Origin: a virus | DNA length: 56,457 nt | Virus record (IMG/VR): IMGVR_UViG_3300042990_000014 | Location: 1 to 56,457 of that record | Direction: 5' to 3' (one strand) | Shown: positions 7,084 through 56,457 of the stretch, piece after piece | Layout of the letters: every line of letters starts with the position of its first letter | How positions within the stretch are numbered: position 1 is the first letter of the stretch | The notes under the pieces: generated by a model | What the model saw: only the letters and a program-made list of their open reading frames with translations | The model's database searches: none | Told to the model about the DNA's origin: nothing | Program-made: the position numbers and the translations under genes

Positions 7084-7095
7084 CCCCCACAACGG

Positions 7096-7125: not shown

Positions 7126-7131
7126 CACCTC

Positions 7132-7308
7132 ATGACGGAAGACGAGAAGCCGAAGAGGACCGCGAAGGCCACGGCCGCGCGCAAGTGGGCGGCCGACAAG
7201 CGGATGGCGCGCGTGCTGGCTGATCGCGGGTGGACGCTGAAGACTCCGGGCGGGGACGACTGGGCAACGCTCATGAAGCGCGAGGAGGCCGGCATTATCG
7301 ACCCGTGA
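7132..7308 (+). CDS. small basic hypothetical protein (58 aa; below the ORF-track size cut-off)
   Basis: ATG 7132 to TGA 7306-7308 read by hand (MTEDEKPKRTAKATAARKW...). GC3 is high and it sits directly after a promoter. Confidence 0.6.
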   Translation: MTEDEKPKRTAKATAARKWAADKRMARVLADRGWTLKTPGGDDWATLMKREEAGIIDP

Positions 7309-7391
7309 AAAGGAAGTAGACCCCGGGTTGCTGCCCGAGGTCTACCGTGAAACGCATCTGCCAACCAGCTACCCCGCGAAAGGTAATCCCG

Positions 7392-9184: not shown

Positions 9185-9835
9185 TTACCGCCACCGTACC
9201 ACCGGTCCGCCCCAGTCCACCTCGCGCGCGTCCGTGGCCAGGAAGTGGCGTGCCACCCGGCGCCCGGCGTGGCCCACCAGCGACGCACCCTCCGGGTGAT
9301 CCACCAGGGACGGCCATGGGAACCAGGCCTCCAGCTTGCGCTGACGCGCCCACCGTCCCACCCGCATGTCATCCGGGATGCCGCGCTGGCGGTCACCCCA
9401 CAGTAGCATCTCCGGGACCAGATGAGTGGGGACGGCCAGCGCCACTCCCCACATCACCATAGGCCCCACGATCCACGCAGCGGCGCCTTCGTCCGCCCGG
9501 CGGGCAAGATCGTGCCACACTCCGGGGACTGGCCGGCCGGTACCGACGTACAGGCTCACCACCGCTGGGCACGGCACGTGATCGAGCGCGCCGGGGAGCG
9601 CGGCCAACAGGTGCGGCGCCACGATCGCATCGTCCTGGAGCAGCAGGTGCCAGGCGGCGGCCGGATCGTACAGTCGCCAGGCCGCGCGCGCGGTACGCCA
9701 GAGGCGCTCGTGATCCCGTGACGGTGGACCTTCGTTGTCCCACGCGATCGGCACTCGACGCCCCAGCTCGTACTGGAGTGCGGTCACCTGCGCGCGGCGG
9801 TCCGGGTGCGCCATCACGCTGATACTGACGGTCAA
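9185..9835 (-). CDS. glycosyltransferase-like protein
   Basis: 216-aa ORF with a DxD-like LLQDDAIV motif. Last gene of the - arm. Confidence 0.55.
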   Translation of the reverse strand: MTVSISVMAHPDRRAQVTALQYELGRRVPIAWDNEGPPSRDHERLWRTARAAWRLYDPAAAWHLLLQDDAIVAPHLLAALPGALDHVPCPAVVSLYVGTGRPVPGVWHDLARRADEGAAAWIVGPMVMWGVALAVPTHLVPEMLLWGDRQRGIPDDMRVGRWARQRKLEAWFPWPSLVDHPEGASLVGHAGRRVARHFLATDAREVDWGGPVVRWR

Positions 9836-27750: not shown

Positions 27751-28590
27751 CTACGGCCAGACGATCATGCGCGTGGGCGGACCTGGCTTCGCGTCGAGGT
27801 CAACCACCTGGTGGTCCGGGTAGGAGTGCGCGGCGGCGTTCATCTGCGCCGTGGTCATGCCAAGGATCTGGTCAGCCTGCTGATCGACGGAGCCCACCAG
27901 CCTCGCGCCCTCGCGGTGGTAACCGGTAAACCCCGCGTGGTAGGCGCGCGGCAGTGCGGCGTACGCCACGCGCTGGCCGTCTCGCTCCACCACCCGGTTG
28001 ATCAGGCCGTCCTGCTCCGCATTGCCCACCGGGATGAGCGAGCGCGGGAACTTCTTACGGCAGTACGCGATGGGGTCATGGAAGTACGATGGCACCGCGT
28101 GCGCCAGCACGGGCGCCAGGCGCTCAGGCCGGAAGCTCACCGCCACCGACTGGTACTGCGACCCGAGGTACAGCGCGGCCGGATCGGGGTCCGGGTCGTG
28201 CGGGTGGTTCTGATTCCGCGCGGCGCTCACCGCCAGCACGTCCGGCGCGAGCTCGTGGGCGGCGCGGTGGAAGTCGAAGTAGTCGATGCCCACCAGCACG
28301 TCCTCCTCCACCAGGTGGACCAGCTCGGCGGTGGCCATGACAGCCTCTTGATATGAGCGCAGCACGTTGTAGCTGTTCCCCCGGTACGGGTGGCTGCGCC
28401 CGAGCACGCGGGTACGTGCGGTGCCGCGCGCGTGCAGAAATGCGGCGGCCACCTGCGCGGTGCCCGCATCGTGCCTGCGATCCAGCGCGATCCAGATATG
28501 CAGGTCCCCGCCATCAGCCAGCGCCAGCCTGCGCAGTGTCGCGGAGAGGAAGGCCGGCCGCCGCCACGCGGGCACGATCACGATCTCCAC
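27751..28590 (-). CDS. glycosyltransferase (GT-A-like)
   Basis: N-terminus IVIVPAWRRPAFL...L and acidic LVEEDVL motif. 279 aa. Confidence 0.6.
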   Translation of the reverse strand: MEIVIVPAWRRPAFLSATLRRLALADGGDLHIWIALDRRHDAGTAQVAAAFLHARGTARTRVLGRSHPYRGNSYNVLRSYQEAVMATAELVHLVEEDVLVGIDYFDFHRAAHELAPDVLAVSAARNQNHPHDPDPDPAALYLGSQYQSVAVSFRPERLAPVLAHAVPSYFHDPIAYCRKKFPRSLIPVGNAEQDGLINRVVERDGQRVAYAALPRAYHAGFTGYHREGARLVGSVDQQADQILGMTTAQMNAAAHSYPDHQVVDLDAKPGPPTRMIVWP

Positions 28591-28592
28591 GC

Positions 28593-29219
28593 TCAGACCT
28601 CGATGACCAGGACGCCGGTCTCATAACCGTCACCGTGACGTTTCTCCAGGCGGTACGGGGTACCGTGCGCGTCGAGCCACGGGACGATCTGGTGGCCCTT
28701 CACGACGCCCGTGGAGTCCAGGTCCACGTCATCCACCATGATCAGCCCGGGGCTGCGCATCATGTGATTGACGATCATGTACTCGCCCAGAGTCAGGCCG
28801 CTGTCGTTGTCGCTGTCGAGGAACGCGACGTCCACGAACCCGGCGCCACCCAGCGTCAGCCGGCCACCGCTCGTCTTCTTGGCATTTCCGAACGCGCTGG
28901 CCAGCATCCCGGCCAGCACGTCGATCGAGTAGCCCTGATGGAGCGTGACCAGATGATCCAGCCCGCGCGCCTGGAGCACCTCGCGGGCAGCGGACACGTC
29001 GAGGTCGATCGCCACCAGGCTGCCGCCATGCGCCTGCACGTCCTCGGCGAAGGTGAGCGTGGACCACCCGTCGTTGACCCGGTACTCCTCGCCTGTGTTA
29101 CGGATGGTGCCCGTCTCCATGATGTCGAGGGGCGCCGCGCGCTCGGCGCGCTCACCGGCCGCCGCGATCCGCTCGCGCAGCTTGCCCAACTCGGCGTTCA
29201 GAATCTCACTCAGGTGCAT
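28593..29219 (-). CDS. class I SAM-dependent (O-)methyltransferase-like protein
   Basis: 208 aa. Contains IMETGT...GGSLVAIDLD...VDVAFLDSD, typical of the Rossmann methyltransferase fold. Confidence 0.55.
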   Translation of the reverse strand: MHLSEILNAELGKLRERIAAAGERAERAAPLDIMETGTIRNTGEEYRVNDGWSTLTFAEDVQAHGGSLVAIDLDVSAAREVLQARGLDHLVTLHQGYSIDVLAGMLASAFGNAKKTSGGRLTLGGAGFVDVAFLDSDNDSGLTLGEYMIVNHMMRSPGLIMVDDVDLDSTGVVKGHQIVPWLDAHGTPYRLEKRHGDGYETGVLVIEV

Positions 29220-29220
29220 A

Positions 29221-30144
29221 TCAAATCCTCGCCAGTAGGGACAAAGCTGTCTCGGTGAAGCTAGCGTTGCGCGCCTCGAAGTGCGCGCGTGCCTTCTTGC
29301 TCATGTCGGCGCGCAGAATCGCGGGGACTGCCTCAGCGGCGCGTACCGCCTCGGCGAGCTGGCTTGCGGTGACGGCGCTGGCCGCCACGAGGCCGTGACG
29401 CGCCGAGCTGGCCGGCGGAACGAGTAGGCCCCAGTCAGGGTGCACGTGTTCGTTCATCGGGCTGGCGTCCATGGTGATCACCAGCGCGCCCACGCTCAGC
29501 GCCTCGGTGATGTAGTGCCCCCAGCCCTCCGCCTTGGAGGGGCACAGGTGGATGCTCGCCCGGTTCATCTCCCTGACCAGCTCCTCGTCAGAGATTCGTC
29601 CCAGTACGCGCACATAGTCCGGCACGTGCAGCGGCACCGCCGAGACGATGGTGAGCGGAGGCAGCGTCGGATTCAGGCGCCACGCCTCGATGACGCGGTC
29701 CGTGTTCTTGAAGTCAGAGTGCCCGCGCAGATGCAGCACCGCCTGTTCGCGGGTCACTCTCAGGTCATGCAGGTCCCGGGACAGGAATCCGGTCAGCGTG
29801 GAACTGCGCAGACGCAGTCCCTGGTAGGCCACATGCGACTCGATCGACTTCGCCCATAGCTGGTGGATCCGGGGAAGGTCGCGCTGCCAGCCACTCTGAA
29901 ACCACTCCAAGTTGAAGACACCCACGGTGCGCTTGGCGTACCGCGCGAGGCGCGCGGACCACAACTCCAGGAAGATGGCGACGTCGCAGCGGCTCATGGC
30001 CGTGGCGCGCCAGTCGACCCGGGTCACGTGGTGGCCGGCGCCGGTCAGCATCGCCTCCAGCAGCCGCATGTCCACCGTGAGTCCCACGCCGTTATCCCGG
30101 CTCACCAGATTGATGGCGAGCTTGCGACCGGCAGGCAAGGTCAC
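29221..30144 (-). CDS. glycosyltransferase (GT-B / GT4-like)
   Basis: 307 aa. C-terminal PSKAEGWGHYITEALSVGALVI motif (E-x7-E type). Confidence 0.65.
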   Translation of the reverse strand: MTLPAGRKLAINLVSRDNGVGLTVDMRLLEAMLTGAGHHVTRVDWRATAMSRCDVAIFLELWSARLARYAKRTVGVFNLEWFQSGWQRDLPRIHQLWAKSIESHVAYQGLRLRSSTLTGFLSRDLHDLRVTREQAVLHLRGHSDFKNTDRVIEAWRLNPTLPPLTIVSAVPLHVPDYVRVLGRISDEELVREMNRASIHLCPSKAEGWGHYITEALSVGALVITMDASPMNEHVHPDWGLLVPPASSARHGLVAASAVTASQLAEAVRAAEAVPAILRADMSKKARAHFEARNASFTETALSLLARI

Positions 30145-34560: not shown

Positions 34561-34611
34561 GCAAAAAGTCAACCCCTCGCGCCCGCCTGAAGTGGCGCGA
34601 GGGGTTGACTT
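34561..34611 (-). terminator. strong rho-independent terminator ending the FtsK-like module
   Basis: 18-bp perfect stem (34566-34583 / 34594-34611) followed on the - strand by TTTTGC. Its 3' arm contains TTGACT, a possible -35 for the next unit. Confidence 0.8.
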
Positions 34612-34639
34612 CCGACCCGTGGGGGTACGTTCGCCGATC

Positions 34640-35101
34640 TTACTGGACCGCGCGACCCCACACGAGCCACCCCGCCACGCAGAGCGCGCCCGTGGTCACA
34701 GCCCACATGATCGCGCTGAGCTGCCACGTGCCGCTGACTCCGCCCGCGATCAGCGCGGTGGCAATGATCATGGTGGTGATGGGCCGGCGGTAGCTGGCGC
34801 GCCGCACGCGGGTACCGCGTCGGTAGTTGTCGTTGTGCTGCACGTTGTGGATGGGCGCCTCGGTCTTGATCGCGCGCCACTCCGCCTCCAGCGCCTCGCG
34901 CCGGGTGCCATGCCAGCGGACGGTACGCGAGGACACCTCACGCCACCAGGGCTTATCGGACGCATGCTGAGCAAAGCGGTGCTTGAGCGAATTGGTGATC
35001 CCCACGTAGAGCAGCCGACGGCGCCGGTCGTACAGGCGGTACACGGCAGTGCGACCCTGTCGCGCGGGCACGTCAGGCAGGTAGCGCGGCGGCTTCATCA
35101 T
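34640..35101 (-). CDS. GIY-YIG domain protein with C-terminal transmembrane segments
   Basis: ATGA-coupled ATG at 35101. Motifs VYRLYD...LLYVGIT..L..R...H and EA..I. Two hydrophobic helices lie at the C-terminus. Confidence 0.7.
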   Translation of the reverse strand: MMKPPRYLPDVPARQGRTAVYRLYDRRRRLLYVGITNSLKHRFAQHASDKPWWREVSSRTVRWHGTRREALEAEWRAIKTEAPIHNVQHNDNYRRGTRVRRASYRRPITTMIIATALIAGGVSGTWQLSAIMWAVTTGALCVAGWLVWGRAVQ

Positions 35102-37029
35102 GCGGCCTTTCTCGAAAGAGTCTTGCCGGTCGGGTAGTAGCGCCCCTGCGGAGCGCCAGCGGGCTGGTGCAGCACGCCGAGCGCGACCAGCTCCTTGAGC
35201 GCGATGCCCGCCCACCTCTCCGAGTAGCCCAGGTGCTTGGCCACCAGGTGCGGCATGGTGAAGCCAGCGGGGGTAACCGCGCCGGAGGCCACAGCCTCGG
35301 CCACCTTGCGGTGCACCTCGGCGATGCGCGGACCGGCGGCGGCCACGTTGGCCGGCGGCGTGGAGGTCCACACCGGGAAGCGCGTCACGTCCGGCAGCGG
35401 CGGCGCGAGCCCGGTGGGGGCTGCCGCGCCCACCGGCCGCCCAGCCTTGCGCGCCTCGACGCGCGCCCGCTTGACGTCCATCGCGGCGGCCTGGATCTTG
35501 AACCGGTCGAGGTACTGGCGCCCGGCGGCATTCGCCGCACCCACGTCCAGCCCGCGCCACGTGCTGGTGGGCAGGTACTCGGCGGCCTGCGCATCAGTGA
35601 AGTGGTAGCTACGGAAGGGCGCGCTGCGCCCGCCGGGCAGCAGGTCCACCAGGTAGGCATAGCCCGGGGTGGGTGGGAAGCTGCTGGGGTTGATCGAGAT
35701 CTCAAAGATGTGCTTCACGTCCTTGCTCTTGCTCCGGAACGCCAAGCCGTTGCCCATCAGCAAGTTAGACCGAATCGACTCGGCGTAGTTCTTCGGGCTC
35801 GACCCGCCGAACGCGTCCAGCAGGGGAGACTGACTGGCCAGGATGCAGGCCACCCCCACCTTGCCCCCCTCGCGCGCGATGGTGGCCACCATCTCCTGGA
35901 TCTCCGGGAAGATCAGCAGCTTGTGGCACTCGTCCATGAAGATCAGCAGTCCGGGGCGTGCTGCGGTGGGAGTGAACCCCGTCCACCCCTCGATGTCGTT
36001 CTCGTCCTGGCGGAGGTCAATCACGCGCAGCGCGTCCCGCAGCATGATCACGGTCTCGGCCGGAGTCTTGGCCACCCGGTCGGCGTACTTCGTGAGCACG
36101 GTGGGCGACGACGCGCCGCCCTGCCCGTCGGCGTACTGCACCACGGTGGGGTGGCTGACGCTGGCCGCGATCGAGACCATGATCGAGTCGCCGGTACGGC
36201 TCTTGCCGGAATCCGTGCCACCCTGCATGTACCCGCCGTAGAGCCGGCTCTTGCTGTACACCCGCCAGCGCGCGACACCGATGCCGTCCGCGAACGGCCC
36301 CAGCGCCACGGTGCCGGTGGCGCTGTCGAACGCGCTCGGCCCCGGCCACAGGATCTCCTGCTTGATCGGGGACGTGGTCACGATGGTGAGTAGCTGGTGA
36401 GGCTCCGGCAGCGTGGTGTGCCTCTCGATGATCAGCTCCTGCCCGTCACGCAGCGAGAGGCCGCCCCGGATCCTCTCCATGGCCCCCGTGACGGTGCTCT
36501 GCTCCTGCACGCCGGGCACGAGGCGCAGCGTGTACCGCACGCCAGATCCGATTACTTCGGGATCCACCAGGCGTGAGCCGGGCACCGCGCGGCTGGGGGC
36601 GCCCACGTTGCGCTCCCAGCGCTCGGCGTACTCCGTGGGCGCCGCTGCGCGCTCGACGACAGCGTCTTTAATCCGGTGGGTACGCCACCAGTTCAGGGAG
36701 ATCACGCTGACCATGAGCGCCAGCACCTCGACGGCGCCCCAGGACAGCCCGGTGGCCGTGACCGAGGTGAGCCAGCCGGCGGCAGCCAGCAGGAATGCGG
36801 CGAGGCGTGAGCGCGACTTCGGGCACGAGATCTTCTGGCCGCGCTTCATCGCCACCAGCACCGCCAGCACGAACGCGGTCGCGCCCACGCTGGCGGCGGT
36901 CGCGGCCTCGTGGCCGGTCGCACTGGCAACTGCGTGGGTCGCGGCGGCGGCCACAACCAGCAGCCCCACAGCAGCGTGGGGCGCGAGCTGTACGCCGATG
37001 CCTGTGTGAGGCTGCTGGGTAGCGATCAT
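35098..37029 (-). CDS. FtsK/SpoIIIE/TraB-like membrane DNA translocase
   Basis: ATG at 37029 preceded by GGAGGAG. N-terminal TM helices, Walker A GGTDSGKS, Walker B LLIFMDECH, ILASQSP, and a C-terminal winged-helix-like tail. Confidence 0.85.
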   Translation of the reverse strand: MIATQQPHTGIGVQLAPHAAVGLLVVAAAATHAVASATGHEAATAASVGATAFVLAVLVAMKRGQKISCPKSRSRLAAFLLAAAGWLTSVTATGLSWGAVEVLALMVSVISLNWWRTHRIKDAVVERAAAPTEYAERWERNVGAPSRAVPGSRLVDPEVIGSGVRYTLRLVPGVQEQSTVTGAMERIRGGLSLRDGQELIIERHTTLPEPHQLLTIVTTSPIKQEILWPGPSAFDSATGTVALGPFADGIGVARWRVYSKSRLYGGYMQGGTDSGKSRTGDSIMVSIAASVSHPTVVQYADGQGGASSPTVLTKYADRVAKTPAETVIMLRDALRVIDLRQDENDIEGWTGFTPTAARPGLLIFMDECHKLLIFPEIQEMVATIAREGGKVGVACILASQSPLLDAFGGSSPKNYAESIRSNLLMGNGLAFRSKSKDVKHIFEISINPSSFPPTPGYAYLVDLLPGGRSAPFRSYHFTDAQAAEYLPTSTWRGLDVGAANAAGRQYLDRFKIQAAAMDVKRARVEARKAGRPVGAAAPTGLAPPLPDVTRFPVWTSTPPANVAAAGPRIAEVHRKVAEAVASGAVTPAGFTMPHLVAKHLGYSERWAGIALKELVALGVLHQPAGAPQGRYYPTGKTLSRKAA

Positions 37030-37286
37030 GACTTCGGGGACTCCTCCGTCAGTGTGATGACATGGGGCCTGAACGGCAGCGCCTCGGCGCGGACCCGTTC
37101 GGCGTACGCGACGCCCGCGATGAACGCCTGTCGCCAGACTTCGGCGGTCGCGCGCTCGGCGTCGTGCTCCCATCGCGCACGCAGCTCGCCACCCCAGCTG
37201 CGCCCAGCGCCCGAATCCACGCCGAGCTCGGCCACCCACTTCACGAGGTGCGCGGGCGGCTTAATCTCTTCCTCCAGGCTCGCCAC
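37026..37286 (-). CDS. hypothetical protein (86 aa)
   Basis: I chose the GTG at 37286, which follows GGAGAGGGAGAG. The ORF-track start at 37325 is also possible. Confidence 0.55.
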   Translation of the reverse strand: MASLEEEIKPPAHLVKWVAELGVDSGAGRSWGGELRARWEHDAERATAEVWRQAFIAGVAYAERVRAEALPFRPHVITLTEESPKS

Positions 37287-37364
37287 GATCTCTCCCTCTC
37301 CTCGCGCTGATCTAGCATCTTGCACCGCACCCCGCCGAAGCGGGGTACCGTGCGAGCGGCTCGG

Positions 37365-38120
37365 TCAGCGGCCACCCGTGAGGTGTTCCTTGTCCCCGGA
37401 AGCCTCCGGACTGGCCAGGTACGCCTCCTGCACACCCTTGTTGATGTCGGTGAGCGCCTTGGCGAGCATCGCCCACGCGGCCTCCGCCGCACTGGACTTA
37501 ATCCGCGCCTCGCTGGCCAGCGCCAGGACGGTGGGACCATGCTTCGCGGCCTCCAGCCCGGCGAGGAAGGTCTCCCCGCCCCCGTGCTCGGCGTACACCT
37601 CGGCCACCGCCTGCGCGTGGGCGATGGCGGGGTCGAGACCGGTAACTTCGGACATGATGGAACCTGCTTCCTTTTTCGGGAACATGTGGACAACGTTGGA
37701 AGGCGCCTCGGTGGCGCTCTCCGGTGGCGCGACCGGCGCTGGCTGGACGGCCGGTAGCGCAGGTGCGGCGGGGATTAAATGGATGGCTTGCGCAGGCACG
37801 AAGGCGTCGTCAATTCGCTGACTGGCCGGGCGCCCCTCGCCAGCCACCGCCAAGAAGCTGTCCGGCGCCGTCGGTCCGGATGTCTTGGCGGTGTGCGCGC
37901 GGCGCGCTTCGGTCTTCGCGCTGAGCATGTCGCCCCACAGGTCCATGCACCACTCTTTCGAGCCGTAGCGGGGCTGGTATCCGGGCTGCCCCTGCTGGCG
38001 CAGTTTCTCCAGCTTCCGCTCCCAGCGCGGAGAGGTCTTGCCCTGCGCGGCGTACTTCAGGTCGGTGGCCGCGCGCGTGGCGAGGTAGTACGCGCAGTAG
38101 ATGAGCAGGACAATCTCCAT
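37365..38120 (-). CDS. membrane-anchored hypothetical protein (251 aa)
   Basis: ORF track; N-terminal hydrophobic helix. Confidence 0.7.
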   Translation of the reverse strand: MEIVLLIYCAYYLATRAATDLKYAAQGKTSPRWERKLEKLRQQGQPGYQPRYGSKEWCMDLWGDMLSAKTEARRAHTAKTSGPTAPDSFLAVAGEGRPASQRIDDAFVPAQAIHLIPAAPALPAVQPAPVAPPESATEAPSNVVHMFPKKEAGSIMSEVTGLDPAIAHAQAVAEVYAEHGGGETFLAGLEAAKHGPTVLALASEARIKSSAAEAAWAMLAKALTDINKGVQEAYLASPEASGDKEHLTGGR

Positions 38121-38122
38121 GA

Positions 38123-38611
38123 TCAGTACCCCTCGTCCATGCCGGGGGCGCCGCGCTTGCCCTTACCGAACAGGTGGCCACTCTTCACCGTGCGCTGCGC
38201 GAAGGCGATAGCCACGCCCAGCAGGACCAGGGTCACCACGGTGGGCGCCGCCTTGCCCAGCGCACTGTGGATGGGGTCAGTCGCCCACTCCGCCGCGTCG
38301 TGCGAGCGGTCCATCACCCACTTGCCGACGCCGCCTGGCGCGATGCCCGCCAGGGTCGGCAGCACGATCGCGGAGTAGACGGCGATTTTGTTGGGCTCCC
38401 CGTCCATCGCGAGGTCACGAATGGTCAGCGCCAGCAACGGAATGAATATCACCAGCACGTACCAGCCCAGCCCGTGACCCACCGACTCGACGGTGTCCCC
38501 GACCCACATGCCGGGCGCGAACGCGCCCGCCAGGATCGCGCACCCGAACGAGGCCCACGCCATGATCGGGACAGTGACGCCCCTGATCTGCGCTTTCACG
38601 CCCTTAGCCAT
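38123..38611 (-). CDS. polytopic membrane protein (162 aa)
   Basis: ATG at 38611 preceded by AAAGGAG; at least 4 hydrophobic helices. Confidence 0.7.
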   Translation of the reverse strand: MAKGVKAQIRGVTVPIMAWASFGCAILAGAFAPGMWVGDTVESVGHGLGWYVLVIFIPLLALTIRDLAMDGEPNKIAVYSAIVLPTLAGIAPGGVGKWVMDRSHDAAEWATDPIHSALGKAAPTVVTLVLLGVAIAFAQRTVKSGHLFGKGKRGAPGMDEGY

Positions 38612-38627
38612 GATCAATCTCCTTTCT

Positions 38628-39077
38628 CTACAGGAAGATCCAGCCGGCGAGAACGCCAGCGGGACGAATGAGGTAGTCCGCGACCCAAGGCCCCGGACCC
38701 ACCAGGATGAACAGCTTCCACGCCGCGAACACGGGCAGCGCGCGCCCGGGACGCTGTGCGATCCACTCGACGTAGCGGCACACCACAGTGGCGGGACGCC
38801 CGATCAGCCGGAAGTACCCGATGCCCAGCGAGCGCAGCAGCCCGACGTCAGCCGTCCAGCCGGCGCCGTGCGCGTACACGCGCAGCTCGCGGACGCTGGA
38901 CGGCCGCGCGGTGAGCACACTCGGGGGTGTGAAGTACGTGTGAAGTTTCGCGCGGACGTCACTGCGCGTGACTGCCGACTTCCGACCGATCGGACCACCG
39001 GGGAGCGTTTCGCGCTCGGCGGGGGTGTCCTGAAGGTCGGAAGTTCCGACTTCGGAGTTACTGAGCGTGGTGGTCAT
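38628..39077 (-). CDS. membrane protein (149 aa)
   Basis: ORF track; ATGA coupled to the upstream gene. Confidence 0.65.
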   Translation of the reverse strand: MTTTLSNSEVGTSDLQDTPAERETLPGGPIGRKSAVTRSDVRAKLHTYFTPPSVLTARPSSVRELRVYAHGAGWTADVGLLRSLGIGYFRLIGRPATVVCRYVEWIAQRPGRALPVFAAWKLFILVGPGPWVADYLIRPAGVLAGWIFL

Positions 39078-39247
39078 CGCCGCCCCCTCATCAGCTCGAC
39101 GGTCAGCGCGTGCGCAGACCAGCCCGCACTCATGGCGAGGACGGCGGCCACCCAGGGCCAGCCGCCGTTGACCAGCGTGAAGGTGGTCAACGCCAGTTCA
39201 TTCAGCAGGGAGAGCCCCCACAGCCATGCCCATCCGCGACTGGTCAT
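39074..39247 (-). CDS. small membrane protein (57 aa)
   Basis: ATGA-coupled ATG at 39247 (MTSRGWAWLWGLSLL...). Confidence 0.5.
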   Translation of the reverse strand: MTSRGWAWLWGLSLLNELALTTFTLVNGGWPWVAAVLAMSAGWSAHALTVELMRGRR

Positions 39248-39414
39248 CGGCTCAGCCTGGACAGCATCCAGACGAACGCCAGCGGGAACGGCGCGTTGAA
39301 CGCCAGCAGGAGGATGAGCCAGTACGGCGCGCCGTTCACCGTGGCGTGCGCCAGCGCAACGAGATCGGCCACGGTCAGCAGCGCGAAACACGCCCAGATC
39401 AGTACGCGTGCCAT
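39244..39414 (-). CDS. small membrane protein (56 aa)
   Basis: Hand-translated MARVLIWACFALLTVADLVALAH.... GAAGGAAGG RBS. Below the ORF-track cut-off. Confidence 0.5.
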   Translation of the reverse strand: MARVLIWACFALLTVADLVALAHATVNGAPYWLILLLAFNAPFPLAFVWMLSRLSR

Positions 39415-39484
39415 GATGAACCTTCCTTCTTCTCTGCTCGGGAAACGGGAAATGCGGGGCGCGCCCTAGCCGGCGCGCCCCGTT

Positions 39485-39874
39485 CTAGCTTTCGTCCAGC
39501 AGGGTCCAGGACAGCACGATCGCACTGGTGACGCCGTTACCCTCGCAGGCCCGGCCCAGCTCGCGGACGTCCTCGTAGGTGCGGATGGGTTTGCCCAGAT
39601 CACGCCACGCGGCGCCCACATGCGTGATCCCGCCCATGTAGGCCGAGTAGGTCACGTAGTAGGGGTAGCTCGTGCGCGCGAGGGAAGCGCCCTTCACCCG
39701 CGCGCTCAACTCGATGACCTGCTCCAGTAGCTGGACATTCTCCGCCACGAGGCGCTCGGTGTCGGCGGTCGCGACGTCCAGCTCGGCCACCGCCTGCCGG
39801 ATGACGGTGGCGTGCTCCGGCCGCACCTGACGCGCCAGGCGCTCGATCGTTTCGCGCTGCTCATTCGTCAGCAT
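39485..39874 (-). CDS. hypothetical protein (129 aa)
   Basis: The ATG at 39874 (MLTNEQRETIERL) overlaps the upstream stop. Confidence 0.6.
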   Translation of the reverse strand: MLTNEQRETIERLARQVRPEHATVIRQAVAELDVATADTERLVAENVQLLEQVIELSARVKGASLARTSYPYYVTYSAYMGGITHVGAAWRDLGKPIRTYEDVRELGRACEGNGVTSAIVLSWTLLDES

Positions 39875-40050
39875 CAGCGCTGCCCCTCGCTCGTCCTCGA
39901 AATCGCCTTGATCTCCTGAATCAGCAGGGCGAGCGCCGAACCGGTCCCGCACCCCGCACCCACGGACACCCACCACGGCACACTCTCCGGGAGGTACCAC
40001 ATTGCTACGCCGCTCAGGATCAGGCATGCCGTGCGGAAAACGATCATCAT
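39874..40050 (-). CDS. small membrane protein (58 aa)
   Basis: ATG at 40050 after GGGGAGAG; two hydrophobic helices. Confidence 0.5.
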   Translation of the reverse strand: MMIVFRTACLILSGVAMWYLPESVPWWVSVGAGCGTGSALALLIQEIKAISRTSEGQR

Positions 40051-40113
40051 TGCCGACTCTCCCCACATTCATCTCTCGGCGAAGCTCTCACGGTACCACG
40101 GTCAACGCATCCG

Positions 40114-41070
40114 TCAACCGTTCTGAAGTGTCGCATTCCGGCGCGCCAGGGCGCTCTTGCGTGCACTCCCGATCGCGATCAACGCCCCGGTGGCCATGAC
40201 CATGAGCCCGTCCACCGCCAGCGGTCCGAATGCGACGGTCGCGCCGTCCTCGCCCCAGTGCTCCAACAGGCCGGACAGGTGCCGGTAGGAAACGAACGCG
40301 GCCACCAGGGCCACGGGCAGCAGCCCGACGTACCGGAGCGCGATCCAGCGCGCGCCGGAAGGCCACACAACGCGCGCCAGAATCTCTACCGCCACCAGGA
40401 CGGCGACGGGCCAGAAGGCGGAGGCGATGACGGCTCCGGGCTCCGGAGACCAGCCGGAGGGCGCGCCCTCCGGCCCCACGAAGGAATGCGCGACGTTCGC
40501 GGCGATCGACCCGACGCCACCCAGAAGGGCTCCGGCGTACGCCCAGAGCCGGCCGGTGGGGCGGAGCCCTCCGGAGGCCAGAGCCTCCGGCAGAGGTGTG
40601 AGGGCCGGAGGCTCTGGCGTCGAGCGCTCCGCCCTCCGATAGGTGGCTCCACGCCAGAGCCTCCGAAGCCCTCCGGCGCTCTGATCCTCCGGCGCTCCGC
40701 CCTCCGGACTCTGGCCATCTCCGGAGGGCGGAGCCTCCGGAGGGGAATCCTGCACCTCCGGGCTCCGGCCATCCTCCGGAGGTTTAACCTCCGGGCTCCG
40801 GCGCTCCGGGAGAGCCTCCGGCAGGCTCTGGACAAGCCCTCTGATCCTCCGGGCGCGCGACTCCCCGCACCTCTGGTCAGAGGGGAAGAGCTGGTCAGAG
40901 GTCCTCTGGATAACGGAGGCCGCCAGAGGTGCGGAGCGCCAGTCGACTCCGGCGGCCTCCGCATCTCTCCGGAGCCTGGAGACCAGCAGAGCGTCATCGG
41001 CAAGACTAAGGATGCGGCCGGAGGGCACCCCGCTTGCCGGAGGGCTAACCGTCTGCGTAGAGTTGATCAT
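40114..41070 (-). CDS. membrane protein with DUF2637-like C-terminal domain and Pro/Glu-rich linker
   Basis: 318 aa. The C-terminal four-helix region is AANVAHS...WPVAVLVAVEIL...VSYRHL...PLAVDGLMV. Confidence 0.7.
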   Translation of the reverse strand: MINSTQTVSPPASGVPSGRILSLADDALLVSRLRRDAEAAGVDWRSAPLAASVIQRTSDQLFPSDQRCGESRARRIRGLVQSLPEALPERRSPEVKPPEDGRSPEVQDSPPEAPPSGDGQSPEGGAPEDQSAGGLRRLWRGATYRRAERSTPEPPALTPLPEALASGGLRPTGRLWAYAGALLGGVGSIAANVAHSFVGPEGAPSGWSPEPGAVIASAFWPVAVLVAVEILARVVWPSGARWIALRYVGLLPVALVAAFVSYRHLSGLLEHWGEDGATVAFGPLAVDGLMVMATGALIAIGSARKSALARRNATLQNG

Positions 41071-41310
41071 GGTTCGGGTGCCCTTCGAGAGAGGGTGTCA
41101 GATCCTCTGGCTCCGGAGCGTGGTGACACACCCTCCGGAGCTTTTCTGTTCATCGGAACGCTACTCCTCCGGCTTGTGCTCCGCAAGCCAGAGGCTGTAT
41201 CCTCCCGCGCATGAAGCCCAGACGCTCGGTAGTGGGGTGGCGACTCCCCCCGGAGGTGACGGCAGCGGTAGCGGAGTACGGCAGGCAGACCCGGAGGTCT
41301 GCCGCCGGAG
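40434..41310. repeat. dense array of CTCCGG/CCGGAG motifs (about 30 copies, nine as the palindrome CTCCGGAG)
   Basis: Manual scan. Full 8-mers start at 40441, 40569, 40719, 40735, 40774, 40967, 41111 and 41133. The array spans the linker-coding part of 40114-41070 and the non-coding region upstream of it. Confidence 0.8.
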
Positions 41311-41396
41311 CGGCGGAGGTTCTGCTACTGGCCGCACTGAAGGCGGCAGCGGAGCGTGGGGAGTATCGGCCAGCGCCGGAAGGCTGAGCCCACAAG

Positions 41397-41431
41397 GAAG
41401 CCCCGGACGCTTTGGGCGGGTCCGGGGCTTC
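41397..41431 (-). terminator. terminator-like hairpin after the lysis cassette
   Basis: 12-bp stem GAAGCCCCGGAC/GTCCGGGGCTTC with an 11-nt loop. No clear U-tract. Confidence 0.45.
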
Positions 41432-41482
41432 ACTGTCGCGCGGCGCACTCCCTGCGGGCTGGCCCGAAGGAACGTGCCTACC

Positions 41483-41737
41483 CTACAGCGGGTCGTTGTA
41501 CTTCATGATGCGCGGGCGCAGCGCCTGCCCGAAGTTGTCGCGCGGGTCGCTCAACGGCGTCACCTCGCCGCGCACCCAGTACTGCACCCCGAGCTGGATC
41601 GCGGCGAGCGCGAGCACGATACCGGCGGCAACCTTCGCGCCGAACAAGTCGACAAGGAACGCACCGCCCGTCAGCGCCTGGAGCGTGGCCAGCAGCGACA
41701 TGGCGAGCAGTACGGGGTTGCGTTTGATCCGGGTCAC
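41483..41737 (-). CDS. holin-like membrane protein (84 aa, two TM helices)
   Basis: ORF track; last gene of the lysis cluster. Confidence 0.5.
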   Translation of the reverse strand: MTRIKRNPVLLAMSLLATLQALTGGAFLVDLFGAKVAAGIVLALAAIQLGVQYWVRGEVTPLSDPRDNFGQALRPRIMKYNDPL

Positions 41738-41955
41738 GATGTCGCGTCCTGGCGGGCCACAGCCGCGTTCGCCCAGAACATGACCTCCTCCAGCTTCGTC
41801 ATCGCCAGCGCGTACTCACGGCCGGCGGGGAGCAGCTCGCCCAGTTCCAGCGCGAGCCCCATGCACGCCGCGCGCACTCGCTCGTGCTCCGCCTTGCGCT
41901 CCTCGGTCAGCGCCGGATAGAACCTGAAGCGACTACTCAAATCCTGCGGTCCCAT
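41734..41955 (-). CDS. hypothetical protein (73 aa)
   Basis: ORF track; ATGA coupled. Confidence 0.6.
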   Translation of the reverse strand: MGPQDLSSRFRFYPALTEERKAEHERVRAACMGLALELGELLPAGREYALAMTKLEEVMFWANAAVARQDATS

Positions 41956-41965
41956 CTCGTCTCCC

Positions 41966-42211
41966 TCAGTTCTTCGTGATCAGCCCGAAGATGGCCACAA
42001 CCAGGCCGCCCAGCGCCACCAGCCCCGCGATCACCTTCCACGGCCAGCGGTTCTCTTCCAGCTCGCGGAGGCGCCGCTCGTGGTCGCCCTGCGCGGCCTT
42101 GACCGCCTTCACATCGCGGGCCGTGTTCACGGTGGTGGCCTCCACCCTGGTCAGCTTCTCGTAGATGCTGCGGAGAGAGATGACCACGCCGGGCTCCGGG
42201 ACGGTGGTCAT
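41966..42211 (-). CDS. membrane protein with C-terminal TM anchor (holin/spanin-like)
   Basis: 81 aa; coiled N-terminal half followed by WKVIAGLVALGGLVVAIFGLI. Confidence 0.5.
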   Translation of the reverse strand: MTTVPEPGVVISLRSIYEKLTRVEATTVNTARDVKAVKAAQGDHERRLRELEENRWPWKVIAGLVALGGLVVAIFGLITKN

Positions 42212-42960
42212 TCCTTCATCCGCGCGGAGATCATGTTCCCGACCTGCGCGGAGATGGAGCCGCCGATGATCGCGGCCACCCGCTGCGCGAGCTCTTCGAG
42301 CTGCGCGGGGGTGAGCACGGCCGCCGGCCGTGCAATGAGCGCATCCACCTTGACGGTGAGTGCCTTCAAGTTGGCGCGCCCCGCCGGCAACGGCGAGCCG
42401 CTACGCACGTCCATACCGTCGCCCAGCCACTGCTGGAGCCCGTCGTTGGTCAGGCCGCCCGGACCGCCAAGAAGTTCGGTCTTGAGCTGACGGATGGTGT
42501 CCGCGTCGAGCGTCATGCTGTCTCCACTCGTGAAGGGGTCGTAACTGCCGATGGACTGGGTGGCCCAATCGGAGAAGCACGACAGGTGTACGTGCTCGTC
42601 ATCGCTGTCGTACCGGTGCTGGAAGCCGTCCTCGTGCGTGCAGTGGCCACCGCCAAAGTTGATGTACTTGAGCCACGGGAGCTTGCCTGCGCGCGCATCG
42701 CGCAGAATGGCGGCGCCAAGGCCGTTGACGTTCGCGAGGTCGCACGCGCACACGTAGCCGTTCGCCGGGACCGGCTCGGCGGTGTAAGAGAACGGGGTGT
42801 GATCTTCCGGGGTACCAGCCTGGAGGTGGTCTTCGTTACCGATCGTGCCCAGCACCACGATGCCGTGACGCTGCGCAACGGCCACCATGTCCGCGATCGG
42901 GCGTGCCAACGTCCAGTGCCTGCCAGCGTTTACCCAGGTCCAATACGCTTGAGTTGCCAT
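42208..42960 (-). CDS. endolysin, zinc peptidase (M15/VanY-like) type
   Basis: ATG at 42960 after AGGGAGGG. Contains His/Asp metal-ligand-like strings EDHTPF, CACDL and DDEHVHLS. Located next to the holin-like genes. Confidence 0.55.
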   Translation of the reverse strand: MATQAYWTWVNAGRHWTLARPIADMVAVAQRHGIVVLGTIGNEDHLQAGTPEDHTPFSYTAEPVPANGYVCACDLANVNGLGAAILRDARAGKLPWLKYINFGGGHCTHEDGFQHRYDSDDEHVHLSCFSDWATQSIGSYDPFTSGDSMTLDADTIRQLKTELLGGPGGLTNDGLQQWLGDGMDVRSGSPLPAGRANLKALTVKVDALIARPAAVLTPAQLEELAQRVAAIIGGSISAQVGNMISARMKE

Positions 42961-43010
42961 CGCCCTCCCTAGATCGAATGCCACACACTCTCACACCGTA
43001 CGCGCCACGG

Positions 43011-56169: not shown

Positions 56170-56457
56170 GCGAGTGCATGGAGGCGCACCTGGCGTTCCT
56201 GGTGCGGTGCCTGGATGAGGATGCGGCCGTGGCCCACGAGGCGTCGAGGCGAGACGGGAAGTACGTGCCGGACGGCGCCCACTGGGTGTGGGAGGAGACC
56301 CGCACGGATCGGGAGTGCGAGTTGGATCCGGTTACCCAGGAGTTCGTCGGCGAGGACCATCGAGCGGGCGCCGTGTCACTGCGGAGTCGGGAGGAGTTTC
56401 CTTCCGAACTCTCCGGGCGTGGATTTCCCCAGTTCGCCATCGGCAGCGCGGAGGAAG
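56166..56457 (+). CDS. 5' part of junction-spanning gene (continues at 128-363 after removing the duplicated 127 nt)
   Basis: GTGA-coupled GTG at 56166. The frame runs open to the window end and is in phase with 1-363. Confidence 0.7.
   Translation, partial: MSECMEAHLAFLVRCLDEDAAVAHEASRRDGKYVPDGAHWVWEETRTDRECELDPVTQEFVGEDHRAGAVSLRSREEFPSELSGRGFPQFAIGSAEE
56331..56457. repeat. terminal overlap, copy 2 of 2
   Basis: Identical to 1-127. Confidence 0.95.

What the first reader, a model, noticed from the sequence alone, without database searches (positions are those of the whole stretch)
34561..41482. Actinomycete conjugation-like DNA-translocase module inserted between lysis genes and portal
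This ~6.9-kb self-contained - strand unit is bounded by a 410-bp non-coding leader (41071-41482) and an 18-bp-stem terminator (34566-34611). It encodes:
- a DUF2637-like polytopic membrane protein (40114-41070);
- eight mostly small or membrane proteins;
- an FtsK/SpoIIIE/TraB-like translocase (35098-37029) with TM anchor, Walker A/B and a C-terminal winged-helix-like tail;
- a GIY-YIG protein with TM helices.

In Streptomyces-type plasmids, a single FtsK-like TraB plus membrane Spd proteins move double-stranded DNA between hyphal compartments. Finding that architecture splitting the terminase-portal block is unusual. It raises the idea that this element spreads or partitions its DNA cell-to-cell, or excludes competitors, independently of virions.
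Basis: partly seen in the sequence, partly recalled or inferred. Interest (0 to 1): 0.8.

Follow-up and report, generated by a model that had tools for sequence, protein, structure and literature searches.

The report
Plasmid-type DNA pump operon in phage
A complete 56-kb actinomycete phage genome carries a separately controlled operon for a membrane DNA pump related to the one Streptomyces plasmids use to push double-stranded DNA between cells, so the phage may also spread its genome without virus particles, though this is untested.

Summary
The genes are real and at the stated coordinates. One detail is wrong: the "410-bp non-coding leader" holds a conserved 58-aa gene on the + strand (41211-41387) and a hairpin. 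The true intergenic gap is 140 bp, with two conserved palindromes.

The 643-aa protein has four TM helices, an FtsK-type motor and a C-terminal winged helix. Its predicted fold matches FtsK best (Foldseek E 2e-14). Its sequence profile is much closer to actinomycete plasmid Tra proteins than to E. coli FtsK, and does not match this phage's own terminase or helicases.

The first gene's membrane domain is 75% identical to the DUF2637 protein of classic AICEs. The cassette g149-g164-g251-Tra recurs across Micromonosporaceae; g149, g251 and Tra also occur in other actinomycete families, including plasmids.

The module is not a one-off insertion. It sits in the same slot in at least five related phage contigs, but phiAsp2 lacks it. 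It also occurs in Micromonosporaceae proviruses next to NUDIX and GntR genes.

An unexplained array of about 40 CCGGAG half-sites covers the first gene and its promoter.

Homology to conjugative translocase systems is well supported. DNA transfer between cells is plausible but untested. I rate this a new variant of a known kind.

The parts
41392..41436 (.). Hairpin between the convergent genes g84 (minus strand, lysis cassette) and the 58-aa ORF (plus strand). Probable bidirectional terminator and upstream boundary of the module.
   Evidence: Inverted repeat I17. Free energy -33.9 and -35.6 kcal/mol on the two strands, z = -3.2 and -4.2.
41211..41387 (+). Conserved 58-aa basic protein transcribed divergently from the operon. 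Candidate repressor in the position that KorA/TraR holds on plasmids. The ribbon-helix-helix-like sequence pattern is not verified.
   Evidence: 75-81% amino-acid identity in L028, L033 and L035 at the same position and orientation. No Pfam or PDB hit. The AF2 monomer shows an extended N-terminus and one long helix.
41071..41210 (.). Divergent promoter/operator region. It has two CTCCGGAG palindromes 22 bp apart (41111-41118 and 41133-41140) and a 12-bp inverted repeat, CCTCTGGCTTGC-N6-GCAAGCCAGAGG in the consensus of the four phages and 11/12 in this window (41166-41194).
   Evidence: 83% nucleotide identity across four phage contigs, with both palindromes conserved.
40434..41310 (.). Array of about 40 CCGGAG/CTCCGG half-sites. 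It includes 8 of the window's 9 CTCCGGAG palindromes. It overlies the 5' two-thirds of the first gene, the intergenic gap and part of the 58-aa ORF. Its function is unknown.
   Evidence: Density is 39 per about 0.95 kb against 1.76 per kb elsewhere. 32 sites lie in the gene, against 6.7 +/- 2.2 expected when synonymous codons are resampled (0 of 5000 reach 32). All three codon phases and both orientations are used.
40114..41070 (-). First gene, 318 aa: a soluble N-terminal domain, a Pro/Glu-rich linker and a C-terminal DUF2637-type polytopic membrane domain.
   Evidence: Pfam DUF2637 25.5 bits against a 22.8 cut-off. Residues 172-301 are 75% identical to the AICE DUF2637 protein P0115. Three TM segments.
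39874..40068 (-). g64, a small membrane protein.
   Evidence: GC3 0.83. One TM segment passed the hydropathy threshold.
39485..39874 (-). g129, a soluble protein with a coiled-coil-like N-terminus. Conserved in the closest phage relatives.
   Evidence: GC3 frame support. 31-46% identity in L033 and L035. No family hit.
39244..39414 (-). g56, a protein with two TM helices.
   Evidence: GC3 0.89. TM prediction.
39074..39247 (-). g57, a small hydrophobic protein. Its start overlaps the g56 stop as ATGA.
   Evidence: The GC3 frame switches at about 39280. Sequence.
38628..39077 (-). g149, a conserved partner of this Tra subfamily. It has an FTPP...LTERP motif and a hydrophobic C-terminus.
   Evidence: Found directly upstream of the Tra gene in all Micromonosporaceae loci. 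A profile search also finds it in Actinomadura, Kutzneria plasmid pKutB-C4, Pseudonocardia plasmid pLS2-1 and Amycolatopsis.
38123..38617 (-). g164, a conserved polytopic membrane protein with 3-4 TM helices.
   Evidence: Alignment A3 and TM prediction. Present in all Micromonosporaceae loci. No similarity to pIJ101 SpdB.
37365..38120 (-). g251: an N-terminal TM helix, a conserved juxtamembrane motif, a variable Pro-rich middle and a conserved helical C-terminal domain. Conserved partner of the Tra gene.
   Evidence: Alignment A5. Profile hits upstream of the Tra gene in Actinomadura, Actinophytocola and Kutzneria plasmid loci.
37026..37325 (-). g99, a lineage-specific small soluble ORF. Its stop overlaps the translocase start.
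   Evidence: GC3 support. No homologue in any related locus.
35098..37029 (-). TraB/Tra-type FtsK-like dsDNA translocase, 643 aa. TM helices span residues 11-117, an alpha/beta domain 131-217, the motor 240-490 and a winged helix 571-633.
   Evidence: AF2 pLDDT 85.4. Foldseek top hits are the FtsK motor (E 2e-14) and TcpA. PDB profile hits EccC at 3e-7. PHROG 1358 at 6e-7.
34640..35101 (-). Membrane-anchored GIY-YIG nuclease, 153 aa, translationally coupled to the translocase by an ATGA overlap.
   Evidence: Pfam GIY-YIG 1.1e-7 and PHROG 3312 endonuclease 1.6e-19. The C-terminal stretch is hydrophobic: one segment passed the threshold, and I judge about two helices from the sequence. The same coupled gene occurs in L004, L028, L029, L033 and L035.
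34561..34611 (-). Intrinsic terminator that closes the operon.
   Evidence: 18-bp perfect stem plus UUUUU, -42.3 kcal/mol, z = -6.75.

Best explanation
The region is an autonomous transcription unit of the kind that drives double-stranded DNA transfer in actinomycete plasmids and AICEs. It has become a conserved accessory cassette of a lineage of Micromonosporaceae siphoviruses.

Shown here:
- A TraB/Tra-family FtsK-like motor with an N-terminal membrane anchor and a C-terminal winged helix.
- An AICE-type DUF2637 membrane protein.
- Three conserved partner membrane proteins (g149, g164, g251).
- A coupled, membrane-anchored GIY-YIG nuclease.
- A divergent small gene and conserved palindromic operators.
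- Hairpins flanking the unit on both sides.

Inferred:
- When derepressed, the membrane proteins and a ring of the translocase assemble at hyphal septa or contact sites.
- The winged helix and/or the DNA-binding membrane protein capture phage DNA, possibly at the CCGGAG array.
- ATP hydrolysis pumps the double-stranded phage genome into the neighbouring compartment or hypha. This would give virion-independent spread in a mycelial host.
- The nuclease may cut or linearise the substrate, or degrade resident DNA.
For: Translocase identity:
- The predicted fold matches the FtsK motor best (E 2e-14, TM about 0.63), then the conjugation coupling protein TcpA.
- Profile-profile probability is 99.1% to the pFRL1 Tra-like protein and 98.1% to experimentally characterised pIJ101 Tra. 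The pIJ101 alignment is collinear through the C-terminal winged helix. The value for E. coli FtsK is 30.7%.
- The family profile scores Kutzneria plasmid pKutB-C4 at 400 bits and Pseudonocardia plasmid pLS2-1 at 244 bits. This phage's terminase and helicases score about zero.

Synteny with transfer systems:
- The order DUF2637 ... Tra occurs on pFRL1.
- Classic AICEs have GntR / DUF6284-DUF2637-Tra-Rep-Xis-Int.
- The window's TM domain is 75% identical to the AICE DUF2637 protein.
- NUDIX and GntR genes flank the module in Micromonosporaceae proviruses.

Signs of selection:
- Same position and intact ORFs in L004, L028, L029, L033 and L035, at 46-67% translocase identity.
- The family has 469 representatives at E <= 1e-30.

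Autonomous regulation.

Precedents:
- Clt sites are arrays of short repeats bound by TraB (PMC4447253, PMC3583192).
- SpdB2 homologues on phiC31 and VWB were proposed to help spread phage DNA (PMC4447253).
Against: - There is no functional data.
- The small membrane proteins have no detectable homology to the one characterised Spd protein tested.
- No GntR regulator, integrase or AICE-type Rep gene was recognised in the window among the ORFs scanned. It is therefore unclear in what state the genome would be transferred.
- The motif array does not co-vary with the translocase recognition helix. L029 has an almost identical helix but a GAGACC array. L003 and L009 have identical helices but different arrays. 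The array is thus not demonstrably a clt read by the winged helix.
- Pfam FtsK_SpoIIIE does not hit the protein.
- The terminator-flanked, self-regulated layout is equally typical of morons that serve exclusion or defence.
Confidence: 0.5

Rival explanations
1. The module is an exclusion or defence moron. The operon would be expressed on its own to keep out competing DNA such as superinfecting phages, AICEs or plasmids. The membrane-anchored GIY-YIG nuclease would cut incoming DNA, and the FtsK-like motor would feed or expel it.
For: - The unit is self-contained, with its own regulator and flanking hairpins.
- A nuclease with a membrane anchor is translationally coupled to the motor.
- There are weak PADLOC hits: PDC-S14 at 6.6e-6 for the nuclease and mad8 at 1.5e-4 for the ATPase.
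- An Acb2/Tad1-like anti-defence gene lies next door.
- Chromosomal copies sit beside NUDIX genes. In pSAM2 this class (Pif) is an immunity factor against redundant transfer (PMC2440964).
Against: - The PADLOC hits are marginal and cover only generic domains.
- The closest characterised relatives of the ATPase are transfer proteins.
- The conserved partners g149 and g251 travel with the Tra gene on plasmids that lack the nuclease.
- The nuclease is absent from the chromosomal versions.
Confidence: 0.2
2. The translocase works like SpoIIIE. It would pump or retain the phage genome across sporulation or vegetative septa so that spores or daughter compartments carry the phage. This serves carrier-state or vertical transmission rather than horizontal spread to new hyphae.
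For: - The protein has the FtsK motor fold plus a sequence-reading winged helix.
- The hosts (Micromonosporaceae) are sporulating mycelial bacteria, inferred from the taxonomy of all homologues.
- ftsK-like genes in actinophages have been suggested to manipulate host development (PMC10117723, PMC13587820).
Against: - Sequence affinity is to plasmid Tra, not to chromosomal FtsK.
- The associated DUF2637, NUDIX and GntR genes are conjugation-type features.
Confidence: 0.12
3. The module is a protein-secretion ATPase system resembling EccC of type VII secretion. It would export g251 or other small products rather than DNA.
For: - The best sequence-level PDB hit of the family profile is EccC (4nh0, E 3e-7).
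- g251 has a conserved helical C-terminal domain.
Against: - There is one ATPase domain, not three.
- A C-terminal winged helix is aligned with that of pIJ101 Tra.
- Foldseek ranks the FtsK DNA motor and TcpA above EccC.
- No WXG100 or Ecc component hits were found.
Confidence: 0.05
4. The module is a selfish or decaying passenger: a fragment of an AICE or plasmid captured by the phage, with no function in the phage life cycle.
For: - phiAsp2 lacks it and carries unrelated genes in the slot.
- No integrase or Rep gene accompanies it.
Against: - All ORFs are intact, with host-like GC3 values.
- Start/stop overlaps that allow translational coupling are preserved.
- The operon and its operator region are conserved at the same site in at least five diverged phage contigs.
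Confidence: 0.08

Closest known systems
Streptomyces plasmid Tra/TraB translocases (pIJ101 Tra/KilA, pSVH1 TraB) with their kil-kor control and Spd operons
   Same: - The protein architecture is the same: TM anchor, FtsK-type motor, C-terminal winged helix.
- Profile homology to pIJ101 Tra is 98.1% over 412 columns.
- The gene sits in an operon of small membrane proteins with translational coupling.
- A divergently transcribed regulator gene faces palindromic operators.
- A short-repeat array lies nearby, as in clt sites (PMC4447253, PMC3583192).
   Different: - It is carried by a tailed phage.
- The regulator is a 58-aa protein, not a GntR-family one.
- No homology to pIJ101 SpdB was detected.
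- The repeat array lies at the 5' end of the operon inside the first gene, and does not co-vary with the winged helix.
- There is an extra membrane-anchored GIY-YIG nuclease.
- Pfam FtsK_SpoIIIE is not matched.
Micromonosporaceae AICEs (GntR / DUF6284-DUF2637-Tra-Rep-Xis-Int), for example loci L044 (Dactylosporangium) and L045 (Actinoplanes)
   Same: - The DUF2637 membrane domain is 75% identical.
- A Tra-like ATPase lies downstream of DUF2637, immediately in L044 and after one small ORF in L045. The L044 ATPase aligns with the family profile at 93% probability.
   Different: - The window has no integrase, excisionase or AICE Rep gene.
- In the window protein the DNA-facing domain and the TM domain are in the opposite order.
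- The window carries four to eight additional genes and complete virion, lysis and replication modules.
Plasmid-phage pZL12/phiZL12 of Streptomyces (Zhong et al. 2010, J Bacteriol 192:3747; cited in PMC3583192 and PMC4487206; details from my own knowledge)
   Same: One replicon combines tailed-phage structural genes with a Streptomyces-type tra locus. In pZL12 this is a major tra gene plus adjacent genes required for conjugal transfer.
   Different: - pZL12 is a 90-kb plasmid with RepA and ParAB. No partition or plasmid replication genes were recognised in this 56-kb genome.
- I did not test homology between the two tra loci, because pZL12 was not retrieved.
FtsK/SpoIIIE-like and SpdB2-like genes annotated in actinophages (PHROG 1358; phiC31, VWB; Streptomyces phages Jaresh and AndoPrime)
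   Same: - There is a weak match to PHROG 1358 (6e-7).
- The literature already speculates that such genes help spread phage DNA or manipulate host development (PMC4447253, PMC13587820, PMC10117723).
   Different: - No protein-level match to any of 50,697 deposited phage genomes at E 1e-5.
- Here a whole conserved operon is present, with DUF2637, partner proteins, a regulator and a nuclease, rather than an isolated gene.
pMEA300 RepAM, which binds multiple identical 8-bp repeats inside its own coding sequence (PMC2440964)
   Same: An AICE-world precedent for a dense array of short identical repeats embedded in the coding sequence of a DNA-binding protein's own gene.
   Different: RepAM is a replication initiator and its array is a putative origin. 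Here the gene encodes a membrane protein, and the binding partner is unknown.

Membership tests
FtsK/SpoIIIE-HerA superfamily of P-loop translocases | Walker A and Walker B motifs and the conserved glutamine after strand 4 | tested here: met
   GGTDSGKSR (G270, G275 and K276 invariant), FMDECH (D366 and E367 invariant) and ASQ (Q400 invariant) across 31 homologues.
FtsK/SpoIIIE-HerA superfamily of P-loop translocases | FtsK motor (alpha + beta domain) fold | tested here: met
   AF2 model with pLDDT 85.4. Foldseek top hits are 6t8o, 2iut and 2ius (E about 2e-14, TM on target 0.62-0.66, about 400 columns).
FtsK/SpoIIIE-HerA superfamily of P-loop translocases | Match to Pfam PF01580 (FtsK_SpoIIIE) at the gathering score | tested here: not met
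   No Pfam hit at E <= 0.1. The family profile does hit EccC at 3e-7, HerA at 4e-5 and FtsK at 8e-3 in the PDB.
Actinomycete conjugative translocase TraB/Tra | Architecture of N-terminal TM segment, translocase domain and C-terminal winged helix | tested here: met
   TM helices at residues 11-117, motor at 240-490, winged helix at 571-633. The winged-helix region weakly matches MarR/ArsR folds and aligns with that of pIJ101 Tra.
Actinomycete conjugative translocase TraB/Tra | Homology to an experimentally characterised Tra protein that is stronger than to chromosomal FtsK | tested here: met
   hhalign gives 98.1% and E 1.3e-13 for pIJ101 Tra, 99.1% and E 1.4e-18 for pFRL1, and 30.7% and E 5e-4 for E. 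coli FtsK.
Actinomycete conjugative translocase TraB/Tra | [quoted passage not shown] | tested here: inconclusive
   A highly significant CCGGAG array exists. Across relatives the array motif follows the first gene, not the recognition helix. No repeat cluster lies at the 3' end of the tra gene.
Actinomycete conjugative translocase TraB/Tra | Kil-kor pairing with a GntR-type repressor (KorA/TraR) | tested here: not met
   No GntR gene was found in the window. A divergent 58-aa ORF with conserved palindromes holds the equivalent position. GntR genes are present beside chromosomal homologues.
Actinomycete conjugative translocase TraB/Tra | Hexameric pore that transfers dsDNA between mycelia | not testable with these tools
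   Needs biochemistry and mating assays.
AICE (actinomycete integrative and conjugative element) | Integrase plus Rep plus Tra in one element (PMC3218068) | tested here: not met
   Only the Tra component is present. No integrase or AICE-type Rep gene was found among the ORFs scanned. The genome instead has portal, MuF, large terminase and lysis genes.
Spd (spread) proteins of Streptomyces plasmids | Sequence homology to a characterised Spd protein | tested here: not met
   The g164 profile against pIJ101 SpdB gives probability 0.6%. Other Spd proteins (SpdB2 of pSVH1, pSAM2 SpdA-D) were not tested.
DUF2637 (PF10935) | Pfam match above the gathering score | tested here: met
   25.5 bits against 22.8, partial, residues 249-311. 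75% identity to a DUF2637-annotated AICE protein across the whole TM domain.
GIY-YIG nucleases | Pfam PF01541 match above the gathering score | tested here: met
   32.4 bits against 22.6, E 1.1e-7. PHROG 3312 endonuclease at 1.6e-19.
Phage-plasmid (pZL12 or P1 type) | Plasmid replication and partition genes (RepA, ParAB) alongside virion genes | tested here: not met
   No Par or Rep family hits among the ORFs scanned. Many small ORFs are still unannotated, so this is weak negative evidence.

The most novel reading that the evidence does not exclude
This phage lineage, and related Micromonosporaceae prophages, would have two transmission routes. One is ordinary virions. The other is a conjugation-type, TraB-driven transfer of the double-stranded phage genome through hyphal septa or hyphal contacts. 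A membrane-anchored DNA-binding DUF2637 protein would tether the genome through the CCGGAG array inside its own gene, and a coupled GIY-YIG nuclease would prepare the substrate.
Probability: 0.3. Interest if true: 0.85.

Novelty: new variant of a known kind. Interest (0 to 1): 0.62.

Why it matters
If the operon moves phage DNA between compartments or hyphae, infection of mycelial actinomycetes would not be limited to virion adsorption. That would change how plaques, containment by development and phage-host dynamics are read in antibiotic-producing actinomycetes.

It would also blur the line between phages and conjugative elements in a second way, beyond phage-plasmids.

The coupled membrane nuclease bears on an open question in Streptomyces-type conjugation: how a circular double-stranded molecule is threaded through a hexameric pump.

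The module is compact, flanked by terminators and conserved, so it is directly testable by deletion.

Even if the function is exclusion, it would be a new use of a TraB-type motor.

Tried and rejected
- Nucleotide and protein searches of the module against 50,697 phage records found nothing. Cultured-phage synteny could therefore only be checked through portal and large-terminase hits, which led to phiAsp2.
- The first genome-contig scan with the single protein, and an attempt with the 31-sequence alignment, both failed. A 10-sequence alignment worked.
- I tested the idea that the repeat array is a TraB recognition array read by the winged helix. I reject its simple form. Elements with near-identical recognition helices (window and L029; L003 and L009) carry different arrays or none. 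Elements with different helices (L003, L008, L010) share GGCGGAA.
- I tested whether the arrays are only a by-product of repetitive peptides. For the window and L028 I reject this, because sites occur in all codon phases, in both orientations and in non-coding DNA, and are about 5-fold above synonymous resampling. For L003 and L026 most copies share one phase and strand. There, duplication of peptide-coding repeats remains possible.
- The classic AICEs and plasmids checked (L044, L045, L030, L031, L019) show no comparable array.
- The ribbon-helix-helix assignment for the 58-aa ORF could not be confirmed. It has no Pfam or PDB hits, and the AF2 monomer gives one long helix.
- PADLOC, NCBIfam and Pfam gave nothing for g64, g129, g56/g57, g149, g164, g251 or g99.
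- A search for integrase, partition or repressor genes in the rest of the genome found none. The phage's lifestyle stays undetermined.
- The pZL12 paper (PMC2897331) is not held, and the Kutzneria plasmid record is not in the annotated collections.

Full report
**What the window is.** The 56,457-base window has an exact 127-bp overlap between its two ends. It is therefore a complete circular or circularly permuted assembly of about 56,330 bp. It has 64-73% G+C. It encodes a portal (PHROG 776, E 5e-142), a MuF-like protein, a large terminase (TerL), a holin-like protein, a primase/helicase, a helicase, an exonuclease and a RuvC-like resolvase.

There is no nucleotide match to any deposited phage. 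The nearest cultured relative by protein is Actinoplanes phage phiAsp2, with 55% identity for portal and 63% for TerL. Every homologue of the module's proteins comes from Micromonosporaceae or from soil metagenome contigs. The host is probably a mycelial actinomycete of that family; this is an inference.

**Checking the observation.**
- The terminator at 34566-34611 is an 18-bp perfect stem followed by UUUUU, at -42.3 kcal/mol and z = -6.75.
- The GIY-YIG domain (Pfam 1.1e-7) with a hydrophobic C-terminal tail is real. Its start (ATG 35101) overlaps the translocase stop.
- Eight ORFs lie between the first gene and the translocase. g56 and g57 overlap by ATGA.
- The DUF2637 call is valid but partial: 25.5 bits against a 22.8 cut-off, over residues 249-311.

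One element is wrong. The "410-bp non-coding leader" holds a + strand ORF of 58 aa (41211-41387) that is 75-81% identical in three related phage contigs, at the same place and orientation. It also holds a hairpin (41392-41436) between this ORF and the convergent last gene of the lysis cassette.

The real intergenic gap is 140 bp. It is 83% identical across four phages and carries two CTCCGGAG palindromes 22 bp apart plus a second 12-bp inverted repeat.

**The ATPase.** Pfam does not recognise it. PHROG 1358 ("FtsK/SpoIIIE-like") hits at 6e-7. An alignment of 31 homologues shows invariant Walker A, Walker B and the post-strand-4 glutamine.
- The profile hits EccC (3e-7), HerA (4e-5) and FtsK (8e-3) in the PDB. 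Its C-terminus hits MarR/ArsR winged helices weakly.
- The AF2 model (pLDDT 85.4) shows four TM helices, an alpha/beta domain, the motor and a winged helix.
- Foldseek ranks the FtsK motor first (E 2e-14, about 400 columns), then the conjugation coupling protein TcpA, EccC and HerA.
- Profile-profile comparison gives 99.1% to the Tra-like protein of Streptomyces linear plasmid pFRL1. It gives 98.1% to pIJ101 Tra, with 412 collinear columns including the winged helix. It gives 93% to the Tra of a Dactylosporangium AICE and 30.7% to E. coli FtsK.
- A profile HMM scores Kutzneria plasmid pKutB-C4 at 400 bits, Pseudonocardia plasmid pLS2-1 at 244 bits, pFRL1 at 69 and pIJ101 Tra at 25. This phage's own TerL and primase-helicase score about -3 bits and its 946-aa helicase +1.0 bits.

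The family has 469 representatives at E <= 1e-30 among 1.84 billion clusters, nearly all 630-780 aa.

**The partners.**
- The first gene's TM domain (residues 172-301) is 75% identical to the N-terminal TM domain of DUF2637 proteins. These have more than 780 relatives, many fused to HTH_11, HTH_23 or ArsR-type DNA-binding domains.
- Two such proteins lie in textbook AICEs: GntR, then divergently DUF6284, DUF2637, a 690- or 714-aa Tra, a DnaB-primase or Prim-Pol gene, Xis and Int.
- On pFRL1 a 605-aa DUF2637 protein (Pfam 2.5e-49) lies 2.7 kb upstream of the Tra-like gene.
- g149, g164 and g251 precede the Tra gene in every Micromonosporaceae locus.
- Profiles of g149 and g251 also find partners upstream of the Tra gene in Actinomadura, Actinophytocola, Amycolatopsis and Pseudonocardia, including plasmids pKutB-C4 and pLS2-1.

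They are therefore conserved companions of this Tra subfamily, comparable in role to the "adjacent genes" that theta-type Streptomyces plasmids need for transfer (PMC3583192). I found no homology to pIJ101 SpdB, so "Spd" is an analogy, not a membership.

**Is it an insertion?** phiAsp2 has no homologue of the translocase. Between holin and portal it carries unrelated genes (pas68-76, the genome ends, pas1-3). Only the DUF1360-like gene next to the portal is shared. Relative to phiAsp2 the module is thus an indel in a variable slot.

The same order recurs in L004, L028/L034, L029, L033 and L035, at 46-67% translocase identity. That order is TerL, lysin, holin-like, Acb2/Tad1-like, TM protein, (regulator), first gene..., Tra, GIY-YIG, DUF1360, portal. 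The terminase and portal are already apart in this lineage without the module.

In Micromonospora, Plantactinospora and others, the module sits beside NUDIX and GntR genes, and once beside Xis-Int. Holin and tail genes follow in the opposite orientation. IMG/VR lists three such regions from isolate genomes as 40-44-kb proviruses. In L025 and L027 host genes abut the NUDIX side with no integrase there. This suggests, but does not prove, that module and virion genes form one element.

**The repeat array.** CCGGAG/CTCCGG occurs 39 times in 40434-41310, against 1.76 per kb elsewhere. Eight of the window's nine CTCCGGAG palindromes lie there, where 2.35 are expected in the whole window.
- 32 copies are inside the first gene. 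Resampling synonymous codons with the genome's own usage gives 6.7 +/- 2.2, with a maximum of 17 in 5000 trials.
- The copies use all three codon phases and both orientations, and extend into non-coding DNA.
- L028 and L033 share the motif. L035 has a one-base variant (CCAGAG). L029 has GAGACC/GGTCTC and L004 has CTCTC-type motifs.
- Chromosomal relatives have their own motifs (GGCGGAA, CGCGTCA, CCGGTACC and others) in the same gene. There most copies share one frame, so duplicated peptide repeats may contribute.
- The motif does not follow the translocase recognition helix. Classic AICEs and plasmids lack such arrays.

I therefore do not call it a clt. It could be an operator or tether array for the 58-aa protein, or for the DNA-binding part of the first gene product. 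A precedent is pMEA300 RepAM, which binds identical 8-bp repeats inside its own gene (PMC2440964). This feature remains unexplained.

**Mechanism.** Shown: an autonomous, terminator-flanked, divergently regulated operon. It encodes a TraB-family motor, an AICE-type DUF2637 protein, conserved membrane partners and a coupled membrane nuclease.

Inferred, from pSVH1 and pIJ101 biology (PMC4447253, PMC3429521):
- the motor forms a membrane ring;
- its winged helix or a partner selects phage DNA;
- ATP hydrolysis drives double-stranded DNA across septa or hyphal contacts.

[quoted passage not shown] From my own knowledge, pZL12 combines a tra locus with phage particles; it is cited in PMC3583192 and PMC4487206.

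Exclusion or defence, spore or compartment segregation, protein secretion and passive carriage are the rivals. None is excluded. PADLOC gives only marginal generic hits.

**Novelty and verdict.** FtsK-like genes in actinophages and Tra-bearing plasmid-phages are known. What is new is a complete AICE/plasmid-type Tra operon, with DUF2637, conserved partners, its own regulator and a membrane-anchored nuclease. It is conserved at a fixed site in a phage clade with no match among 50,697 deposited phage genomes, and it recurs in Micromonosporaceae proviruses. A striking DNA-level repeat array accompanies it. I rate it a new variant of a known kind, of moderate to high interest, with function untested.

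Noticed in passing
window 1-127 and 56331-56457: The two ends of the window share an exact 127-bp direct overlap. This is the signature of a complete circular or circularly permuted assembly, with a unique length of about 56,330 bp.
   Followed up: yes
window 41734-41955 (-): A 73-aa protein in the lysis cassette matches the Pfam Acb2/Tad1 hairpin domain (E 2e-19, 70 bits; PHROG 1454). It is a likely anti-CBASS/anti-Thoeris nucleotide sponge. It is conserved in L004, L028 and L035.
   Followed up: partly
window 27751-30144 (-) and 9185-9835 (-): Glycosyltransferase (GT1, GT2-like) and methyltransferase genes lie between the head-morphogenesis and capsid genes, and a further glucosyltransferase-like gene lies elsewhere. 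The cluster is conserved in relatives L004, L028 and L029. It suggests virion or cell-surface glycan modification.
   Followed up: partly
L003 about 6045-6670; L005 about 6100-6725; L008 about 6877-7625; L010 about 945-1740; L011 7293-7666; L026/L007 about 6645-7566; L029 5955-7137; L004 4848-6566: Each homologous module has its own dense array of a different 6-10-bp motif in or just upstream of its first gene. Examples are GGCGGAA(GAG), GGCGGAGCAG, CCGGTACC, GGCGCGTCA, GAGACC and CGCTCTC. Counts are well above synonymous-codon expectation for most of the motifs tested. The motif tracks the first gene, not the translocase winged helix.
   Followed up: partly
window 41071-41210; L028 6109-6218; L033 and L035 equivalents: The divergent intergenic region is 83% identical across four phages, more conserved than several flanking genes. 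It carries a pair of CTCCGGAG palindromes 22 bp apart and a 12-bp inverted repeat (CCTCTGGCTTGC-N6-GCAAGCCAGAGG).
   Followed up: partly
L019 (Kutzneria buriramensis plasmid pKutB-C4, 56,887 bp): This phage-sized plasmid carries the strongest plasmid-borne homologue of the translocase (400 bits), with g149- and g251-like genes upstream. I could not tell whether it is a conjugative plasmid or a phage-plasmid, because no annotation is held.
   Followed up: no
L003 8754-9923, L025 8393-9919, L027 8769-9923: Chromosomal homologues of g251 carry long insertions with several CxxC pairs that look like zinc ribbons. These lie between the conserved N-terminal TM/juxtamembrane motif and the conserved helical C-terminal domain. 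The phage versions have only a Pro-rich linker there.
   Followed up: no
window 6357-6437 (+): ARAGORN calls an 81-nt tRNA-Ala (anticodon GGC) that overlaps the start of ORF 6399-7031. The length and the overlap make it doubtful.
   Followed up: no
window 42208-42984 (-): The 258-aa protein sits in the lysin position but has no Pfam or PHROG hit. The equivalent gene in L028 is an Amidase_2 lysin. Only the C-terminal 34 residues are shared with L033, which suggests a swapped catalytic domain.
   Followed up: no
window 37330-37345 (-): A small GC-rich hairpin (CCCCGC-TTCG-GCGGGG) lies between g251 and the lineage-specific ORF g99, just upstream of the translocase gene. It may act as an internal attenuator or an RNA stability element.
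   Followed up: no
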